Shown here piece by piece: positions 4,310 through 62,670 of a stretch of DNA of 64,000 bases; position 1 is the stretch's first letter, and each line of letters starts with the position of its first letter. The position numbers were made by a program, and so were the translations under genes. This DNA comes from Chiloscyllium plagiosum (Eukaryota), in the NCBI RefSeq assembly GCF_004010195.1, contig NC_057760.1, positions 3,559,440 through 3,623,439 on the forward strand. Direction: 5' to 3'. The notes under the pieces were generated by a model, which was not told where the DNA came from, did no database searches, and was given only the letters and a program-made list of their open reading frames with translations.

Positions 4310-4827
4310 CATAGAATCCCTACAGTGTGGAGGCAGGCCATTTGGCCCATTGAGCTCACACTGACCTACCCCCATCCTATCCCTTTAATCCTGTATTTCC
4401 ATGAGGAGAAAGTAAGGTCTGCAGATGCTGGAGATCAGAGCTGAAAATGTGTTGCTGGAAGAGCACAGCAGGTCAGGCAGCATCCAAGGAGCAGGAGAAT
4501 CGACGTTTCGGGCATGAGCCCTTCTTCAGGAATGAGGGAAGCCCTTCATTCCTGAAGAAGGGCTTATGCCCGAAACGTCAATTCTCCTGTTCCCTGGATG
4601 CTGCCTGACCTGCTGCGCTTTTCCAGCAACACATTTTCAGCTCCTGTATTTCCATGGCTAATCCACCTAACTTGCACATCTTTGGACTGTGGGAAGAAAC
4701 CGGAGTACCTGGAGGAAACCAGTGCTGACGTGGAGAGAATGTGCAAACTTCACGGAGACAGTGACCAGAGGGTGGAATCGAACTGGTGCTGTGAGGCAGC
4801 AGTGCTAAGTAGGCTACTGTGCTGCCC
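4310..4827 (-). mobile_element. HE1-like tRNA-derived V-SINE, interrupted by a PLE repeat
   Basis: Minus-strand head GGGCAGCACAGTAGC..., B-box GTTCGATTCC, V-domain GTTTGCACATTCTCTCC...CCGGTTTCTTCCCACAGTCCAAAGATGTGCA, and a LINE-like tail. Confidence 0.85.
4404..4641. mobile_element. Short palindromic PLE terminal-repeat insertion inside an HE1 SINE (ANP32E intron 2)
   Basis: Inverted arms of about 100 bp centred near 4540; TSD TCCTGTATTTCCATG at 4389-4403 and 4642-4656. Confidence 0.85.
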
Positions 4828-6010: not shown

Positions 6011-6207
6011 AAATGTGTTGCTGGAACAGCGCAGCAGGTCAGGCAGCATCCAAGGAGCAGGAGAATCGACATTTCGGGCATGAGCCCTTCTTTAGGCTCA
6101 TGCCCGAAACATCGATTCTCTTGCTCTTTGGATGCTGCCTGACCTGCTGCGCTTTTCCAGCAACACATTTTCAGCTCTGATCTCCAGCATCTGCAGTCCT
6201 CACTTTC
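6011..6207. mobile_element. Short palindromic PLE terminal-repeat insertion (ANP32E intron 2)
   Basis: Inverted arms centred near 6090; TSD TCCCATTTATCTGG at 5997-6010 and 6208-6221. Confidence 0.85.
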
Positions 6208-11193: not shown

Positions 11194-12907
11194 GTTAGTG
11201 AACCAGATGGGTTTTTGAATCACAATCTATGATACTGTTGCGGTCATGGTCACCATGACTGAGTCTAGCTTTTATTTCAGATTAATGGAGCAATTCAGAT
11301 CCAAGAAACAGGCAGAATGTTATAGCAACATGATTACACACTATTATGGAAATTACCCAGTGACAACTCACCAAGGATTTATACACTATGTGGTGCACCA
11401 TTAAACCAGAAAGACTGACAAGGCAATTTTTAAACTCACTCCAGGGTTTAGAAACTCATGGATCTAAAACAACTGCCCACGACAGATGGGAACAAGGTGC
11501 AATGGTTCTCGCTCAATACTAATGTCTTGTAAACTAATGCAAATACAAGGATAAGATGAAGTGCTGTTGTAACAGTCCCCAAAATCCAGAAGATTTATCA
11601 CCCATTATAGGTTTTACTTGTATAAAAAGGAAGACAAAAGCAAGATTAAAAGATCAAAGAGCAGCAGAGTGAGGAAAAAATAAGAGAACAGACAACAAGC
11701 AATTCAGTAAGTTTGTGATCTCTCATTTGTTGCACAGCTAAGTTTGCTTGCTATCAGATGCCTCTGATTCTGTGCCTTGTGTTGCAGAAAGCCATGATCA
11801 ACGTAGAGCATAATACTTTACAGGCCTCAACACACTGCCAAAAGTCACTTGAATCATTCACAGAGTGACCAGGGATATTATGGAATAGATAAGGAGCTAG
11901 TGCCAAATTACAGTTATGTTCTTATATGTAACATACAGGAATCAAAAGTTACATTCACCAAATAGGTGAACACTTACTGATTCATCACCCAGTTGCTTTG
12001 GGACCCCACTTTAATCCTCAGTTGCAAGAAAATACAACCATCATTAGGCTTGAACTCAGGTTTCTACCAGGTCTGCTGAGTTGCATCAGCAGTTTCCTTT
12101 TTTTTTGCAACCATCAAACTGATTCCTTTCTCTGCCCCTCCACCTGACTATTGCTCAACTCCAGTTCCACAGGAATAGTCACCAGGTCCCTACTCATCGG
12201 AGTCAATAAGCCATTCTACCAGGAAAGGTGTCACAGTCAAAATCAATCCCCTTTTCACCCAACAACAAAAAAAACACACACACACACACCAGATAGGAGT
12301 TCAAAAGTAAGAACTTTGACCATTTACTAAACAAACAAAACTCCCAAAAATACTGCGGATGCTGGAAATCAGAAACACACAAATTGCTGGAAAATAAACT
12401 CAGCAGTTCTGGCAGCATCTGTGGAGAGAAAGCAGAGTCAAAGTTACAGGTCCAGTGAGTCTGCTTCAGAACTTCTGAAATTACTGCAAAATGATGTGGT
12501 AGGAGGAATAAAATGGGGAGGGGGGGGGGGGGGGGGGTTGGAAGTCCACCCCAACACACACACACACACAGAGTTTTGTGGGTTTTTTTAAAACAAAAGT
12601 CTAAAGCATGACCACACGACAAAATAAAATAAAATGCAAACCCTCCCCCAACCCCAAAAGTGCAGGAAAAAGATAGAATTTCAGATCAAAATACGACACT
12701 GCAAAAAGTAAGAACTGGACAAATATAAATCTATTTTGAGGAAAGATTCAGTTGAGTTTTAAGGGAAATGACTGCAGCCCTGAAGGAAACCCAAGTGAGC
12801 AACCTGGACTTTTTCTTCTGCAAGGGTAAAAAAGAAGAGATCACAAACACAAGTGACATGTGCTGTTAAAACTCCCTCACTCCATTAATGTGCAATAAAC
12901 CCTTTAC

Positions 12908-14689: not shown

Positions 14690-15235
14690 TTTCCCATCAC
14701 CACACCCAGGTCCTGTCATGACATGAATTGCTTTCAATCTATTTTCAACAACTCATAGCTCCCATTAACACCTATCTAGTTTCTCCTCTAGCTTAAATCT
14801 CCACGCTTCAGGCTCTCTGCCTTTATTCCTGATAAAGGGCTTTTGCCCGAAACGTCGATTTCGAAGCTCCTGGGATGCTGCCTGAATTGCTGTGCTCTTC
14901 CAGCACCACTGATCCAGAATCTGGTTTCCAGCATCTGCAGTCATTGTTTTTACCTAGTTTCTCCTTTACCCTAGTTTACTATCAAAATAATCCCTTTGTC
15001 AACCTACCTTTTTTCTCTGACTCTTTCTGGGCTCTCTCCATGTATTTGCGCATGCCCCTCCATCAAGCTATACCACCTTTTCCCAGCTATGGGCAGTTCT
15101 GAAGGAGGGTTACTGGACTTGAAATGTTAACTGTTTTTCTCTCTCCACAGATGCTGCAAGACCTGCTGAGTTTCTCAAACAATTTCGATGCTTTATTTTT
15201 CAGATTTCCTGCATCTGCAGTTCTTTAGTTTATTT
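14690..15235 (+). mobile_element. Older PLE-like terminal repeat with a younger PLE repeat nested at 14788-14953
   Basis: Inner copy flanked by CTAGTTTCTCCT (14776-14787, 14954-14965). The outer family is also seen inverted at about 12345-12480. Confidence 0.7.
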
Positions 15236-26386: not shown

Positions 26387-29197
26387 ACCTGTACAAGAAG
26401 AACGGATTGCACCTAAGTTGGAATGGGACTAATATACTGGCAGGGAGATTTGCTAGAGCTGCTCGGGAGGATTTATACTAGTAAAGTGGGGGTGTGGGAC
26501 CCAGGGAGATAGTGAGGAAAGGGATCAATCTGAGACTGGTACAGTTGAGAACAGAAGTGAGTCAAACAGTCAGGGCAGGCAGGGACAAGGTAGGACTAAT
26601 AAATTAGACTGCATTTATTTCAATACAAGGGGCCTAACAGGGAAGGCAGATGAACTCAGGGCATGGTTAGGAACATGGGACTGGGATATCATAGCAATTA
26701 CAGAAACATGGCTCAGGGATGGGCAGGACTGGCAGCTTAACGTTACAGGATACAAAGGGAGGATAGAAAGGGAGGCAAGAGAGGAGGGGGAGTGGTGTTT
26801 TTGATAAGGGATAGCATTGCAACTGTGCTGAGGGAGGATATTCCCAGAAATACATCCAAGAAAGTTATTTGGGTGGAACTGAGAAATAAGAAAGGGATGA
26901 TCACCTTATTGGGATTATATTATAGACCCCCTAATAGTCAGAGGGAAATTGAGAAACAAACTTGTAAGGAGATCTCAGCTATCTGTAAGAATAATAAGCT
27001 GGTTATGGTAGGGGATTTTAACTTTCCAAACATGGACTGGGACTGCCATAGTGTTAAGGGTTTAGATGGAGAGGAATTTGTTAAGTGTGTACAAGACAAT
27101 TTTCTGATTCAGTCTGTGGATGTACCTACTAGAGAAGGTGCAAAACTTGACATACTCTTGGTAAATTAGGCAGGGCAGGTGACTGAGGTGTCAGTGGGGG
27201 AGCACTTTGGGGCCAGCGACCATAATTCCATTAGATTTAAAATAGTGATGGAAAAGGATAGACCAGATCTAAAAGTTGAAGTTCTAAATTGGAGAAAGGC
27301 TAATATTAGGCAAGAACGTTCAAAAGCTGATTGGGGGCAGATGTTTGCAGGGAAAGGGACGGCTGGAAAATGAGAAGCCTTCAGGAATTAGATAACGAGA
27401 ATCCAGAGAAAGTATATTCCTGTCAGGGTGAAAGGAAAGGCTGGTAGGTGTAGGGAATGCTGGTTGACTAAAGAAATTGAGGGTTTGGTTAAGAAAAAGA
27501 AGGAAGCATATGTAAGGTATAGACAGGATAGATCAAGTTAATCTGTAGAAGAGTATAAAGGCAGTAGGAGTATATTTAAGAGGGAAATCAGGAGGGCAAA
27601 AAGGGGACATGAGATAACTTTGGCAAATAGAGTTCAGGAGAATTCAAAGGGTTTTTACAAATACATTAAGGATAAAAGGGTAACTAGGGAGAGAATAGGG
27701 CCTCTCAAAGAGCAGTAACGTGGCCTTTGTGTGGAGCCGCAGAAAATGAGGGAGATACTAAACAAGTATTTTGCATTAATATTTACTGTGGAAAAGGGCA
27801 TGAAAGATATAGAATGTAGGGAAATTGATGGTGACACCTTGCAAAAGGAGGAAGTGCTGGGTGTCTTGAAATGCATAAATGTGGATAAATCCCCAGGACC
27901 TGATCAGGTGTACCCTAGAACACTGTGGGAAGCTAGAGAAGTGATTGCTGGGCCTCTTGCTGAGATATTTGTATCATTGATAGTCACAGGTGAGGTGCCG
28001 GAAGACTGGAGGTTGGCTAACGTGGTGCCACTGTTTAAGAAGGGTGGTAAGGACAAGCCAGGGAACTATAGACCAGTGAGCCTGACCTCGGTGGTGGGCA
28101 AGTTGTTGGAGGGAATCCTGAGGTACAGAACTGGCTCAAAGGTAGAAGACAGAGGGTCATGGTGGAGGGTTGTTTTTCAGACTGGAGGCCTGTGACCAGT
28201 GTAGTGCCACAAGGATCGGTGCTGGGTCCACTACTTTTTGTCTACATAAATGATTTGGATGTGAACATAAGAGTTAGTAAGTTTGCAGATGACACCAAAA
28301 TTGGAGGTGTAGTGGACAGCGAAGAAGGTTACCTCAGATTACAACAGGACCTTGATCAGATGGGCCAATGGGCTGAGAAGTGGCAGATGGAGTTTAATTC
28401 AGATAAATGCAAGGTGCTGTGTTTTGGGAAAGCAAATCTTAGCAGGACTTATACACTTAATGGTAAGGTCCTTGGGAGTGTTGCTGAACAAAGAGACCTT
28501 GGAGTGCAGATTCATAGTTCCTTGAAAATGGAGTTGCAGGTAGATAGGATAGTGAAGATGGCGTTTGGTATGCTTTCTTTTATTGGTCAGAGTATTGAGT
28601 ACAGGAGTTGGAAGGTCATGTTGCAGCTGTACAGGGCATTGGTTAGGCCACTGTTGGAATATTGCATGCACTTTTGGTCTCCTTCCTATCGGAAAGATGT
28701 TGTGAAATTTGAAAGGGTTCAGAAAAGATTTACAAGGAAGTTGCCAGGGTTGGAACATTTGAGCTATAGGGAGAGGCTGAACAGACTGGGGCTGTTTTCC
28801 CTGGAGCATCCGAGGTTGAGGGGTGACCTTATAGAGGTTTATAAAATCATGTGGGGCATGGATAGAATAAATAGACAAGGTATGTTCCCTGGGGTGGGTG
28901 AGTCTCGAACTAGAGGGCATAGGTTTAGGGTGAGAGGGGAAAGATATAAAAGAGAACTAAGGGGCAACGTTTTCATGCAGAGGGTGGTACGTGTTTGGAA
29001 TGAGCTGCCAGAGTGGAGGCTGGTACAATTACAACACTTAAAAGGCATTTGGATGGGTATATGAATAGGAAGGGTTTACAGGGATATGGGCCGGTGCTGG
29101 CAGGTGGAACTAGATTGGGTTGGGATATCTGGTCGGCATGGGTGGGTTGGACCGAAGGGTCTGTTTCCATGTTGTACATCTCTATGACTCTATGACT
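26387..29197 (+). mobile_element. 5'-truncated CR1-clade (HER1-like) LINE: ORF1 C-terminus, APE endonuclease, RT and (CTATGACT)n tail; inserted in the Gypsy protease region
   Basis: DLYKKNGLHL..GTNILAGRF (ORF1 end); DIIAITETW, LYYRPP, MVGDFNFP, SDHN (APE); [18 protein letters not shown] (RT, ORF 28159..29064). Stops, frameshifts and an internal deletion near 28122. Confidence 0.95.
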
Positions 29198-31035
29198 AAC
29201 AAACTGAATTCCTGGAACTGACACTCTGTCAATCACACCCACTGTTACATCCCCAGTCTTGAGTTGGCACTCCAACCGGCTCTTACAAGGGGGAACACTA
29301 AATTTCTGTCCATCTATCCCACAAATTACCACACTCTCAGTTAACAGATCAGAAAGTGTGCATATTTGCTCATCCCTTGCTATCAGCAACTGGTTAGATC
29401 CTGTCTCTCTCAAAATTATAACTTATTTCCCTTCTCCCCTGTTCCTTCTGAGTAAACTTTACCCACAGAGGTGAATCCTTTGTACAGATCAGGTACTAAC
29501 TTCATACCCAGCCCCTGCCTCGGCTGTGCACTCTCCTGCAGCTCCTCAGCTCCTCTTGGGATTTCCTTTATTACCTTCACTAATGCCACTGGCTTAGCTT
29601 CTTCTACCACATCTTTTCCCAGAGTGCCTTTCTTTAACGACCAGCACTGTGATTTTATATGTCCCACTTTCTGGCAGTGAACACACCTTTTCCCAGTGCC
29701 CTTCTTATACCACCAGCACTGTGATTTTCTGTGTCCCACTCCATTACAGTGAAAAGACCTGAGGCCTTTCACCTCCCTTCCACTCTCTTGCACTTCTTTA
29801 TCCTGTGGTAAACTGTTACCAGTGTTCTCTACTCTTCGTTTCGGAGTGTAGGATCTGCCCTTCTCCCAACTTCTATCTCTCGCAGGATGAAATTCTGGCC
29901 AGAAGTTTGTCTTATGCACCAACATATATTCATCTGCTAATTCTGCTTCCCTTCTCACTTCCTGAACTTTCTGTCCCTCCACGTGAATTCTGACCATCTC
30001 TGGAAGTGAGTTTTTAAACTCGTCCAGCAGAATAATCTCTCGTGGAGCCTCCTAGGTCTTATCTACTTTGAAAGCACATACCCATCTATCAAAGTAACTA
30101 TGTTTAATTCTTTCGAACTCAACCTGACCTGACTTGGTTCCTTATTTATGTTTCTGTACCGCTGTCTATGTGCTTCTGGTACCAATTCATAAGCACTCAA
30201 AATACCCTGTTTAACCTATTCAGAATATCTTGACCCCTCATCTGACAGCAAAGCAAATACCTCACGAGCTCTGCCTACCACTTTAGTCTGAACTAGCATT
30301 ACCCATAAATCCTCGGGCCTCTCCATCTGCTTAGACAAATTTTCAAATGAAATAAAGAAAGCTTCAACATCTTTCTCATCAAAATGTGGCAGAGTTTTGA
30401 CATACTTGTATATTTTACTACTTTCTGTTTTGATCTCCATCCTGTTAACTTGACTTTGCTGACTAAGTTGCAACTTGTCAAGTTCAAATTCTCTCTCTTT
30501 TTGCTCCGCTAAGAACCTTCTCTCTCTCCTTCCTCTCTCTCTCTTTCTCTTTCCCTTTTTTCTCTCTCTCTTTACTTAGCTAAGAACCTTCTCTCTCTCT
30601 GCCCTTCCTCTCTTTCTGTCTGTATATCTTCTAACTCCATTTTCCTCAATTGTAATTTAAGCTTTTCTACCTCTACTGCACTTGTCTGTTTCTCTAACGC
30701 ACCTAAGTGTTTGAGTAACTCCCTTACAATTTCAGCTTTACTTTTGTCCTTTGTTAAACCCAACTCTAACTTAATTGCTAACTCTAAAGGTATGGCCTTT
30801 TTCATTCCTTCTAAACCTTCTTGGCAAATTTGAGAATCATCTTCAAATCCCAGAACCTCTTTAACAATTTTAACAGCCATTTCACTCACTTTTAATTTCA
30901 TAAACCACAAGTCACCGAAATTAAACAAATTGCCTCACTTGCATTTTATTTAAAGATCTAGGATGCTAACCTGCAAGTGTTTAAATCTACTGGGTTTTTT
31001 CATACCCCCAGATCTATTCAAATCTGTCTAAACTA

Positions 31036-33960: not shown

Positions 33961-34112
33961 GTGAAAACAAGGACTGCAGATGCTGGAAACCAGAGTCTAG
34001 ATTAGAGTGGTGTTGGAAAAGCACAGCAGGTCAGGCAGCATTCGAGGAACAGGGAAATCCTGCTCCTCGGATGCTGCCTGACCTGCTGTGCTTTTCCAGC
34101 ACCACTCTAATC
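33961..34112. mobile_element. Short palindromic PLE terminal-repeat insertion
   Basis: Inverted arms around 34050; TSD TACCATGCCCTG at 33949-33960 and 34113-34124. Confidence 0.8.
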
Positions 34113-35583
34113 TACCATGCCCTGTCTCAGTCCTATGTCCTAACTTTTCCTTTTAAACCTCTGCATCTGCCAGTTGCATTTCCTCTCTTGCATTGCTGTA
34201 CATGCACAACCTTCCACTTGTCTTAGTCTGATCCCTCTAAAAATATCTTCATCCGAATTGTTCCTGGCCTCCTTTTAAAAACCTGTTTGTTTCTGACCTC
34301 TGGAACTGCTGTTCCAGCAGCTTATATTGAGCCCTCTTGTGGCACAGTGGTAATGTCCGAGACCAGGAGGCCCAGGTTTTGTGTCCCACCTGCTCCAGAG
34401 GTGTGCAATAACATCCTTGCACAGGCTGATTAGAAAAATTGGTTTAGTTAAAAAAAGAAATTCCGGCACTTTGTCTTTCACAATTGCAGGGGTGCAAGCA
34501 AATAAATCACCACAATGGGGCACTGGAGATCCACACGAGATGCAGCTCCAAACTCTGACAGTTGATTAACTTTTTGAGAGTCTTGGTAAACTACTGGGTA
34601 ACAATTCTTTGTATTTCCAACAACTTTTTTCTATTCTTCCTTCTCCCCATTTGAGTTGGTGATTTATTTTTCCTCTTAGGGCTGGTGTGTGGTAATATAT
34701 TGTTTTTAATTTTGTGATTAGTATTTTCTATTTTAATTGTTTATGTCATGTGGGTAATATTGTGAACCGAAGTGTTATTTATACAATTATTTCCTAAATG
34801 TTTAGGAAAACTTAACTTTTTGTGATCTCAGGATATTCCAAAGTGATTTAAAGCAGTGAGGAATCTGTGGAATTTCCTGTCCAGTGAAGCAGTTGGGGCT
34901 ACCTCTTCAAATGTTTTTAAGGCAAAGATAGATTGATTTTTGACCAGTAAAGGAATTAAGGGTTATGGTGAGCAGGCAGGTAAGTGGAGCTGAGGCCATG
35001 AAAAGATCAGCCATGATCTCATTGAGTGGTGCAGCTGGCTCGAAGGGCCAAATGGCCAACTCCTGCTCCTAGTTCTAATGCTCTTATTTCTGATGTTCTT
35101 ATGTTTTGTGATATAACTGATGTGCAGTGAGTTTGCACACAACATAATCTTACAAGCAATGTGTCGTGATAACCAGATAACCTCTTTTAGTGATGTTAGT
35201 TAGGGCATAACTATGAATTGGTCCAGAACACAAACTCCTTGCTGTTCTTCAAAATAGGGGCTGTAGAATCTTTAATGTTTGCCCCAAAAAGTGGACAGCA
35301 CCTCATGTGTAGCATCTTATCCACGAGGTGACACCTCTCACAGTGTAGCACTTCCCCAGTACTGCTTTGGGCTATCAGCCTAGATTTGAAGCATGAGACT
35401 TGATTTCAAGTCGAGAATACTGCCAAATGAGACACTGCAAATAAGGAGCACCCAATAATGCCTCACAAGCAAATGGAAGGAAATGGATGTTGATCCTGGA
35501 AGGGAGAGTTTCACATAGAGATAAGCTTTGTGAAGGTTTTCCAAAGATTGAGAGAATCTTGTGTTCACTCCTTTATTTGCGAC

Positions 35584-36063
35584 ACTTCAACTCTCCCTCT
35601 CATTCTGCTGAGGACATGCAGGTCCTGGGCCTCCTCCATCACCACTCCCTCACCACCCAATGCCTGGAGGAGGAACACCTCATCTTCCACCTCGGGACCC
35701 TCCAACCCCAGGGCATCAATGTGGACTTCACCAGTTTCCCCATATCCCCTCCCCCCACCTTACCCTAGTTCCAACCTTCCAGCTCAGCACTGTCCTCATG
35801 ACCTGTCCCATCTGAATATCTTCCTTCCCACCTATCTGCTTCACCCTCCCCTCCGACCTATGACCTTCACTCCACCTCCACCCACCTATTGCACTCTCAG
35901 CTACCTTCCCCCCCCAGCCCCAACCCCCCCTCCTATTTATCTCTCCACCCCCGAGGCTCCCAGCCTCATTCCTGATGAAGGGCTTTTGCCAGAAACGTCG
36001 ATTTTACTGCTCCTCAGATGCTGCCTGACCTGCTGTGTTTTTCCAACACCACACACTTGACTC
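35584..36063 (+). mobile_element. Penelope-like element 3' fragment: GIY-YIG C-terminus plus terminal repeat with hammerhead core
   Basis: HFNSPSHSAEDMQVLGL...LEEEHLIFHLGTLQPQGINVDF (in ORF 35487..35768) followed by the same terminal repeat seen in many short copies. TSD TATTTGCGAC at 35574-35583 and 36064-36073. Confidence 0.85.
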
Positions 36064-36559
36064 TATTTGCGACCATGATCTGATCCAGGGCAGAGAAGAT
36101 CAGCCAAAAGGTTTCTTCCTACAAAGGTGCTGGGAAATGAAGCAAGCTGTCTGGTTCCAAGTCAGCTTAGGGTCAATCCTGACAGGTATAAACTGACATT
36201 CAGAAAGAACCATGGCGTGAACTGTCAGTGGTTCAGGATGAAGAATGGAGATGGGATAATGGGTAAATGTTCTGGACTATCATTCAACTAGTTTTGGGAA
36301 GCAGAATCTATTTACATGGAGTCACAGTTTGTGATTAAATAGTAAGTTTGAGCCTTTGACGGTCCACAAATTGCAAATGAGATAAATAACAGTCCACCTG
36401 GAGAATCAGGTGTTCTTGCAGTATAATCGTGGTCCTATCGTGGTCCTTCACTTAGAACAGTGAAGCATACCCGTGGCACCAAAGTGTTCCTTTTTAAGTT
36501 TATTGAAAAGATCTGGCTGTCGTGTAGTAAATAAAATTGTACTTTTTTCTTTAAAGCAT

Positions 36560-39227: not shown

Positions 39228-39450
39228 TCGAGGAGAAAGTGAGGTCTGCAGATGCTGGAGATCAAAGTTGAAACTTTATTGCTGGAACAGCACAGCAGGT
39301 CAGGCAGCATCCAGGGAACAGGAGATTCGACGTTTCGGGCACAGGCCCTTCTTCAGGAGGGCCTGAAGAAGGGCCTGTGCCCGAAACGTCGAATCTCCTG
39401 TTCCCTGGATGCTGCCTGACCTGCTGTGCTGTTCCAGCAATAAAGTTTCA
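39228..39450. mobile_element. Short palindromic PLE terminal-repeat insertion (ITGA10 intron 1)
   Basis: 90-bp inverted arms 39268-39357 and 39362-39451; TSD ACCATGGCCAAATTCT at 39212-39227 and 39451-39466. Confidence 0.9.
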
Positions 39451-54977: not shown

Positions 54978-55183
54978 GAAAGTGAGGTCTGCAGATGCTG
55001 GAGATCAGAGATGGAAATGTGTTGCTGGAAAAGCGCAGCAGGTCAGGCAGCATCTAGGGAACAGGAGAATCGACGTTTCGGGCATTAGCCCTTCCTGAAG
55101 AAGGGCTAATGCCCGAAACGTCGATTCTCCTGTTCCCTAGATGCTGCCTGACCTGCTGCGCTTTTCCAGCAACACATTTCCAT
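54978..55183. mobile_element. Short palindromic PLE terminal-repeat insertion (ITGA10 intron 2)
   Basis: 86-bp inverted arms 55009-55094 and 55100-55185; TSD CTAATGACACTGAAGGA at 54961-54977 and 55184-55200. Confidence 0.9.
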
Positions 55184-62534: not shown

Positions 62535-62670
62535 ATCAGGAATGACTGATGAAGGGCTTTTGCCCGAAACGTCGATTCTCCTGCTCCTTGGATGTTGCCT
62601 GACCTGCTGTGCTTTTCCAGCACCACACTCTCGACTCTGATCTCCAGCATCTGCAGTCCTCACTTTCTCC
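62535..62670 (+). mobile_element. PLE terminal repeat with intact hammerhead-like core
   Basis: CTGATGA-A-GGGC-TTTT-GCCC-GAAAC-GTC at 62546-62573, then the family 3' end CAGTCCTCACTTTCTCC. Other fragments at 6770-6856, 56055-56220 and 57980-58037. Confidence 0.8.

What the first reader, a model, noticed from the sequence alone, without database searches (positions are those of the whole stretch)
35955..36010. Minimal hammerhead ribozyme core in the terminal repeat of an abundant Penelope-like family
Seen: just 3' of a GIY-YIG C-terminus is ATTC-CTGATGA-A-GGGC-TTTT-GCCA-GAAAC-GTC-GATT. Across copies the core and stem II are largely constant while the 4-nt loop varies: TTAT (4560), TCAT (minus 4510), CTGT (39370), TAAT (55103), TTTT (14837, 62554). 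Position 7 alternates CTGATGA/CTGAAGA, exactly the free hammerhead position. Known: PLE termini carry minimal type I hammerheads, and an extra nucleotide after A9 is tolerated in natural hammerheads. Inference: stem III is reduced to the palindrome ACGT, so cleavage after GUC should require a dimer of two tandem repeats.
Basis: partly seen in the sequence, partly recalled or inferred. Interest (0 to 1): 0.72.

Follow-up and report, generated by a model that had tools for sequence, protein, structure and literature searches.

The report
Shark Penelope element's minimal hammerhead
This is a decayed copy of the small hammerhead-type RNA motif already known from Penelope-like jumping genes, present with an intact core about 100,000 times in this likely shark genome; its pairing is conserved across five element families, and many short copies begin at its first base, which is likely where the element's RNA starts.

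Summary
Confirmed, and of a known kind. The motif (35968-36003) lies in the terminal repeat (pLTR) of a 480-bp, 5'-truncated, Neptune-type Penelope-like insertion with a 10-bp target duplication. A strict core pattern matches 101,249 times in the genome against 0 for the control. Five families keep 14 core positions in their majority sequences while stems I and II change in compensating pairs, and one family has U3-A8 for C3-G8 (93 of 98 listed). This is the minimal hammerhead of Cervera and de la Pena 2014, who also reported U3-A8 in flatworms.

Corrections: this copy has a broken G10.1-C11.1 pair; variation within a family is neutral decay; tandem partners are rare (one found), whereas 90 of 190 family-A copies are head-to-head inverted.

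Extra: 108 of 303 copies start within 10 nt of the ribozyme's first base, 19 at the cut site. A TATA-like stretch lies about 30 nt upstream and the ORF's ATG 18 nt after the cut, so the motif likely opens the mRNA. No cap-derived G was seen (18 of 80, background level). Cleavage is untested. The scan reported these themes before, on this genome and on other shark genomes.

The parts
35574..35583 (.). 5' target-site duplication (10 bp)
   Evidence: identical to 36064-36073
35584..36063 (+). 5'-truncated Penelope-like (Neptune-type) insertion, 480 bp
   Evidence: bounded by the duplication; other copies up to 86-89% identical over most of its length, 13,925 first-look candidates
35586..35768 (+). 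C-terminal remnant of the GIY-YIG endonuclease, with its stop codon
   Evidence: full domain in L106/P0003
35934..35940 (+). TATA-like stretch (TATTTAT), -34 to -28 from the ribozyme's first base; promoter role inferred
   Evidence: an A/T peak at the same place in families A, C, D, E
35968..35971 (+). stem I 5' strand (ATTC); 35968 is where 5' ends of short copies pile up and is the inferred transcription start
35972..35979 (+). core C3-U4-G5-A6-N7-G8-A9 plus the extra A
35980..35991 (+). stem II and loop; 35991 is A, so G10.1-C11.1 is broken in this copy
35992..35999 (+). G12-A13-A14, ACGU palindrome (minimal stem III), C17; predicted cut between 35999 and 36000
   Evidence: sequence; numbering as in PMC4209133
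36000..36003 (+). stem I 3' strand (GATT)
36018..36063 (+). start of the element's ORF (ATG at 36018) up to the nearer of two preferred 3' ends
   Evidence: in tandem copy L331 this ATG opens the frame that runs into the N-terminal region; bimodal 3' ends
36064..36073 (.). 3' target-site duplication
4448..4633 (.). head-to-head inverted pair of family-A ends, two intact cores
39280..39439 (.). head-to-head inverted pair of the young subfamily (stem I 3' strand GAAT), two intact cores
55018..55176 (.). head-to-head inverted pair, junction inside the core
6014..6167 (.). head-to-head inverted pair, junction inside the motif
62546..62638 (+). family-A end with intact core
14798..14909 (+). family-A end with G8 changed to A

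Best explanation
The motif is the minimal type I hammerhead of a Neptune-type Penelope-like retroelement, sitting in the pLTR just ahead of the ORF start, and it likely self-cleaves after base 17 in the master elements' RNA while this genomic copy is a likely inert fossil. Shown: the element anatomy, the fold's conservation and compensating changes across five families, insertion ends with target duplications, and 5' ends piling at the first base of stem I. Inferred: transcription starts at that first base from a TATA/initiator-like promoter in the pLTR; reverse transcription begins at one of two sites about 45 and 85 nt into the ORF on mostly uncut RNA, runs through the ribozyme and often ends at the RNA's 5' end, giving 100-140-bp stubs and fold-back pairs. 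Inferred: cleavage needs a second hammerhead (ACGU paired with ACGU) and probably the element's protein, and would remove a roughly 32-nt capped leader; it is a regulated or minor step, not a requirement for each insertion.
For: Descriptor 7 vs 0 in the window; 101,249 vs 0 in the genome. Majority pairs by family: 2.1-1.1 C-G (A, C) or U-A (B, D, E); 2.2-1.2 U-A (A, B, C) or C-G (D, E); 10.2-11.2 G-C (A, B, C), A-U (D), G-U (E); 10.4-11.4 C-G (A) or U-A (B-E); 3-8 C-G (A-D) or U-A (E, 27 of 30). Of 100 listed matches of 979, 93 are U3-A8, 2 are C3-G8 (family D), 5 have another base 3 with A8, none is U3-G8. N7 and loop II vary freely. RT and GIY-YIG domains in one 893-aa frame with a CxxxxCxxC linker. 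One pLTR-ORF-pLTR tandem with two motifs about 3.1 kb apart. 5' ends: 108 of 303 at -5..+4, 3 at -40..-21, 19 within 3 nt of the cut. Exact target duplications of 7 bp or more in 20 of 69 short copies vs mean 1.9, max 5 in 50 shuffles. 3' ends bimodal: 135 and 148 of 294, with 3 between, the tail signature of PMC11167929.
Against: No cleavage data. The catalytic dimer is computed at -7.5 (focal), -13.1 and -15.1 kcal/mol, above the best alternative cofolds (-17.0, -18.3, -21.6). Family A, the most abundant, has a U-U mismatch in a 4-bp stem I. Only one tandem was found, and its second core is decayed; none of the 195 same-strand neighbour pairs showed a continuous unit between two motifs. No excess G before the start of short copies (18 of 80, background 0.22, p=0.48), so a cap is not shown. 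The TATA-like word list was written after seeing the data and is weak in family A. In the Anolis element, ribozyme mutants did not affect insertion in vitro and no RNA reads ended at the cut (PMC11167929).
Confidence: 0.8

Rival explanations
1. The hammerhead fold is kept as a structural element (protein-binding site, promoter-proximal or translation control) and seldom or never cleaves in vivo.
For: Copies run through the cut site far more often than they stop at it. The dimer is not the favoured fold. PMC4209133 found low activity and did not exclude non-cleaving roles; PMC11167929 found cleavage dispensable for insertion in vitro.
Against: The U3-A8 double change and the invariant G5, A6, A9, G12-A14 and U16.1 across five families are what catalysis constrains. 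A small excess of 5' ends lies at the cut (4 of 190 exactly there in family A).
Confidence: 0.15
2. The ribozyme is real, but the pile-up of 5' ends at the stem I edge comes from a splice acceptor, template-switch microhomology or pausing at the fold, not from a transcription start.
For: In families B-E the first two bases of stem I are AG after a pyrimidine run, and in Drosophila virilis the intron ends at the 5' end of helix I (PMC4209133). About half of the edge copies are fold-backs (57 of 108), and stem I's strands are self-complementary. No cap G.
Against: Family A has no AG at that base yet the same peak. Short non-inverted copies have target duplications that abut the edge, not a shared exon. 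An A/T peak sits at -30 in four families.
Confidence: 0.35
3. Chance likeness: an abundant repeat end that merely resembles a hammerhead.
For: No Rfam hammerhead hit; within family A the core is no better conserved than its flank.
Against: Compensating changes in at least four stem pairs plus the 3-8 pair between families, and the same position in the element as in published PLEs.
Confidence: 0.02

Closest known systems
[quoted passage not shown]
   Same: Type I, extra base between 9 and 10.1, G10.1-C11.1, palindromic 15.2-16.2 with no loop 3, in pLTRs, mostly lone truncated copies, opposite-strand pairs; reported in fish Neptune elements.
   Different: No cartilaginous fish in the alignment part I read or by term search of the supplement. 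Stem II is 4-5 bp here vs 7-8 bp in Schistosoma. 101,249 intact cores vs about 4,000 (coelacanth) and 9,000 (Xenopus), though the descriptors differ.
U3-A8 min-HHR of Schistosoma mansoni Cercyon elements (PMC4209133)
   Same: The same double change of the 3-8 core pair, fixed in a family.
   Different: Here in a vertebrate family (E) whose sister families keep C3-G8, so likely an independent origin (inferred, no tree built).
PAc, Poseidon element of Anolis carolinensis (Frangieh et al. 2024, PMC11167929; read parts 1-2 of 4)
   Same: Hammerhead at the pLTR/ORF junction; two RT start sites inside the ORF giving an optional 30-40-bp tail; uncut RNA as template.
   Different: PAc is Poseidon clade and its ORF starts within stem II; here the linker is Neptune-type and the ATG lies 18 nt after the cut.
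Adineta vaga Penelope pLTRs (Arkhipova et al. 2013, PMC3846280; passages only)
   Same: TATA plus initiator-like motif in the pLTR, head-to-head inverted pLTRs with palindromic junctions, tail, 8-10-bp target duplications, pLTR overlapping the ORF start.
   Different: The passages seen do not place a hammerhead at the start site. D. virilis Penelope has a TATA-less internal promoter (PMC2377424, passages).
Animal non-LTR retrozymes (bioRxiv 10.64898/2026.07.22.740005; read part 1 of 5 and two passages)
   Same: Type I hammerheads derived from PLE pLTRs; reported in one chondrichthyan.
   Different: Retrozymes are tandem non-coding units; these are dispersed truncated ends of a coding element.

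Membership tests
PLE minimal hammerhead (PMC4209133) | Core CUGANGA ... GAAA ... UH | tested here: met
PLE minimal hammerhead (PMC4209133) | One extra base between 9 and 10.1 | tested here: met
   A in the majority of all five families
PLE minimal hammerhead (PMC4209133) | G10.1-C11.1 pair | tested here: met
   Met at family level (158 of 198 in A; in B and D the CpG-decayed G-U form is commoner). Broken in the focal copy (A at 35991).
PLE minimal hammerhead (PMC4209133) | Palindromic 15.2-16.2, no loop 3 | tested here: met
   ACGU in the column majority of all five families, with heavy CpG decay in the copies
PLE minimal hammerhead (PMC4209133) | Helix I and II pairing with compensating changes between families | tested here: met
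   family A keeps a U-U mismatch at 2.3-1.3
PLE minimal hammerhead (PMC4209133) | Located in the pLTR of a PLE | tested here: met
   for family A; families C, D, E linked by upstream protein matches in a few loci each; family B weakly
PLE minimal hammerhead (PMC4209133) | Self-cleavage (dimer or protein-assisted) | not testable with these tools
   only a fragmented poly(A) library was available as raw reads
EN+ PLE, Neptune clade (PMC8557442, passages) | Single ORF with RT and C-terminal GIY-YIG endonuclease | tested here: met
   P0003: PF00078 E=6e-8, PF01541 E=3.5e-4 (just under its cut-off)
EN+ PLE, Neptune clade (PMC8557442, passages) | CX2-5CxxC linker between RT and EN; DKG motif | tested here: met
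   both read by eye in P0003; the linker is shared with Nematis
EN+ PLE, Neptune clade (PMC8557442, passages) | Partial tandems, inverted 5'-truncated copy, optional 30-40-bp tail | tested here: met
EN+ PLE, Neptune clade (PMC8557442, passages) | Placement in an RT phylogeny with named references | not tested
   no named PLE references were among the homologues; no tree built
Non-LTR retrozyme | Tandem non-coding units, each with a hammerhead | tested here: not met
   no such array among 195 same-strand neighbour pairs; the repeat is the end of a coding element
Rfam hammerhead families | Covariance-model match | tested here: not met
   no hammerhead among 10 matches at E<=1

The most novel reading that the evidence does not exclude
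In shark Neptune elements the hammerhead is the first 36-39 bases of the capped mRNA, so cleavage works as a self-decapping switch between translating the RNA and using or destroying it; the hundreds of thousands of stubs are run-off copies of a short pLTR transcript and form a genomic record of the start site and both RT start sites, kept across five families including a U3-A8 one.
Probability: 0.4. Interest if true: 0.6.

Novelty: new member of a known kind. Interest (0 to 1): 0.3.

Why it matters
The class is known, so the motif itself is ordinary. What these PLE hammerheads do is still open (PMC8557442, PMC11167929). This genome offers a young, 96-100% identical subfamily with an open RT-EN frame and a fully paired stem I, natural stem and core variants in five families, and a very large sample of insertion ends. 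That makes the start-site and cleavage questions cheap to test.

Tried and rejected
Rfam scan: no hammerhead. DNA search for family E's tail: nothing; a tail pattern found 2,366 exact copies. Search for an upstream pLTR in 30 loci of the young subfamily: shared sequence reached at most 327 nt upstream of the anchor; the one tandem came from following L026. Cap-derived G: not seen (also 2 of 10). Family B could not be scored for 5' ends (no long reference). 190 of 687 anchored copies were left unassigned to a family, and pair tables use only copies at the family's commonest spacing (280 copies). Sequencing runs: no RNA holder listed. Raw poly(A) single-cell reads: 2,487 laid from about 2% of X19, none from X20, both strands, no start or end pile-up; not a test of cleavage. 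PDB sequence search with P0003: no match. Literature: 'Penelope + shark + hammerhead ribozyme' gave 1 review with a single 'shark' (listing only); 'hammerhead + U3-A8' gave only PMC4209133; searches listed no paper on shark PLE hammerheads or on a start site at the ribozyme. The library lacks most subscription papers and Repbase/Dfam, figures are not held, and bioRxiv supplements (the chondrichthyan species list) could not be seen. Rejected: retrozyme, new SINE class, miRNA precursors (the hairpins are fold-back insertions).

Full report
Observation. The window holds the motif as described at 35968-36003. A descriptor for core plus stem II matches 7 times in the window and never in 100 shuffles. 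The focal copy has A at 11.1, which breaks G10.1-C11.1, and the 14837 copy has lost G8. Rfam finds no hammerhead, only hairpin-like miRNA matches below their gathering scores, mostly over inverted pairs.

The host element. The focal copy is a 480-bp insertion (35584-36063) between 10-bp target duplications. Its best relatives are 86-89% identical, so it is old. [quoted passage not shown] That linker marks the Neptune and Nematis clades (PMC8557442, passages); no tree was built. The closest named proteins are from Chiloscyllium punctatum (83%) and Rhincodon typus (70%), so the host is likely a shark. A subfamily 90-100% identical over 360 bp exists, with its best 20 copies at 96-100%. One partial tandem, L331, shows the order pLTR with motif, ORF, second pLTR with a decayed motif about 3.1 kb on. 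There the conserved ATG just after the predicted cut (18 nt in the focal copy) opens a frame that runs, with breaks, into the N-terminal region found upstream of RT in other copies. The motif therefore lies in the 5' leader.

Abundance. A profile built only from the sequence 3' of the cut found 190 ends in 943 kb of 100 hand-spaced 10-kb stretches, or roughly 700,000 by extrapolation, counting both arms of inverted pairs. A strict pattern for an undecayed C3-G8 core matches 101,249 times genome-wide against 0 for the reversed control. Published counts are about 4,000 for coelacanth and 9,000 for Xenopus (PMC4209133), with a different descriptor.

Is the fold under selection? Inside family A it cannot be told: core columns (0.91-0.99 outside CpG sites) equal most columns of the ORF start behind them, and the CpG in ACGU decays like any other. 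Between families it can. Copies of four further families were fetched by their tails alone. Majorities of all five share U4, G5, A6, A9, the extra A, G10.1, G12-A14, ACGU and, apart from CpG decay in family B, C11.1. Pairs change together: 2.1-1.1, 2.2-1.2, 10.2-11.2 (G-C, G-U, A-U) and 10.4-11.4; 2.3-1.3 is G-C in B, C and E (split in D, 5 G-C of 11), U-U in most of A and U-A in 13 of 198 A copies, including the young subfamily. Family E carries U3-A8: 27 of 30 copies, and 93 of the 98 E-type matches listed of 979, with no U3-G8. Contigs from two other organism labels and reads of a third hold the E motif with no other letter at 10% or more at positions 3 or 8. In RNA reads laid on the young copy, the only sites at 10% or more inside the motif were N7, two loop II bases and 1.3. 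Families are few and related, so this is five comparisons, not hundreds.

Insertion ends. 3' ends are bimodal, about 45 and 85 nt past the ATG (135 and 148 of 294 family-A copies, 3 between), the tail signature that PMC11167929 traced to two internal RT start sites. 5' ends are concentrated at the first base of stem I: 108 of 303 within -5..+4, 50 in the next 10 nt, 19 within 3 nt of the cut, 3 in -40..-21, and 52 extending over 100 nt upstream (both arms of inverted pairs counted, family B unscored). 90 of 190 family-A copies are head-to-head fold-backs, whose RNA would bury the motif in a long duplex (inference). Short non-inverted copies are true insertions: 20 of 69 have exact duplications of 7-15 bp against 1.9 by chance. 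Long copies of A, C, D and E show an A/T peak at about -30 in C-rich sequence, a clear TATAAATA in E and weaker words in A. TATA and initiator-like motifs in pLTRs are known from rotifer elements (PMC3846280, passages). A non-templated cap G, claimed in an earlier scan note, was not reproduced here: 18 of 80 against a background of 0.22.

Mechanism. Most likely the master RNA starts at stem I, is copied mostly uncut from inside the ORF, and often yields a 100-140-bp stub or fold-back. Cleavage would need a partner motif for the ACGU helix and probably the element's protein: the computed dimer is less stable than alternative cofolds, the Schistosoma motif cut only weakly as a dimer (PMC4209133), and the Anolis motif cut only with protein (PMC11167929). 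If the start site is right, cutting would remove a capped leader of about 32 nt. The element anatomy, covariation and end distributions are shown; the start site, cleavage and its role are inferred. The available raw RNA reads cover the motif on both strands without end pile-ups, but the library is fragmented and cannot test this.

Verdict. A correct catch of a published kind: a new member (shark Neptune-type) of the PLE minimal hammerheads. The U3-A8 swap is also in print for flatworms. Earlier notes of this scan, looked up after my analysis, report the same themes on this and other shark genomes; they are not independent support. The residual interest is the scale and the likely coincidence of transcription start and ribozyme edge. 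Interest 0.3.

Noticed in passing
window 28072-29064 (+): 330-aa frame with a reverse transcriptase hit (PF00078, E=6e-11), from another retroelement.
   Followed up: no
window 29416-30051 (-): 211-aa frame with weak SCAN and zinc-knuckle hits, below cut-offs; possibly a gag-like remnant.
   Followed up: no
window about 15100-15181 (+) and 12396-12470 (-): Decayed ends of family B, a second hammerhead-bearing family.
   Followed up: partly
window 34007-34105: Fold-back pair whose junction lies 3' of the cut site, so it has no ribozyme core.
   Followed up: partly
L106:6000-6510 (-): The 5' end of the young copy carries four in-frame repeats of about 120 bp, likely repeated template jumps, and the copy sits in another repeat with a 12-bp duplication.
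   Followed up: no
L160:4820-5420: Compact partial tandem plus inverted copy, the textbook complex PLE insertion, showing sequence beyond the tail.
   Followed up: yes
G000 C1 and C2, list: Six family-E inverted pairs fold back at or within 3 nt of the palindromic AGCT of stem I.
   Followed up: partly
window 35972-36030, family A with T at position 7: N7=T creates an ATG inside the core that opens a short upstream frame ending just after the main ATG; N7=A subfamilies lack it.
   Followed up: no
families B-E, stem I 5' strand: The first two bases are AG after a pyrimidine run, like a splice acceptor.
   Followed up: partly
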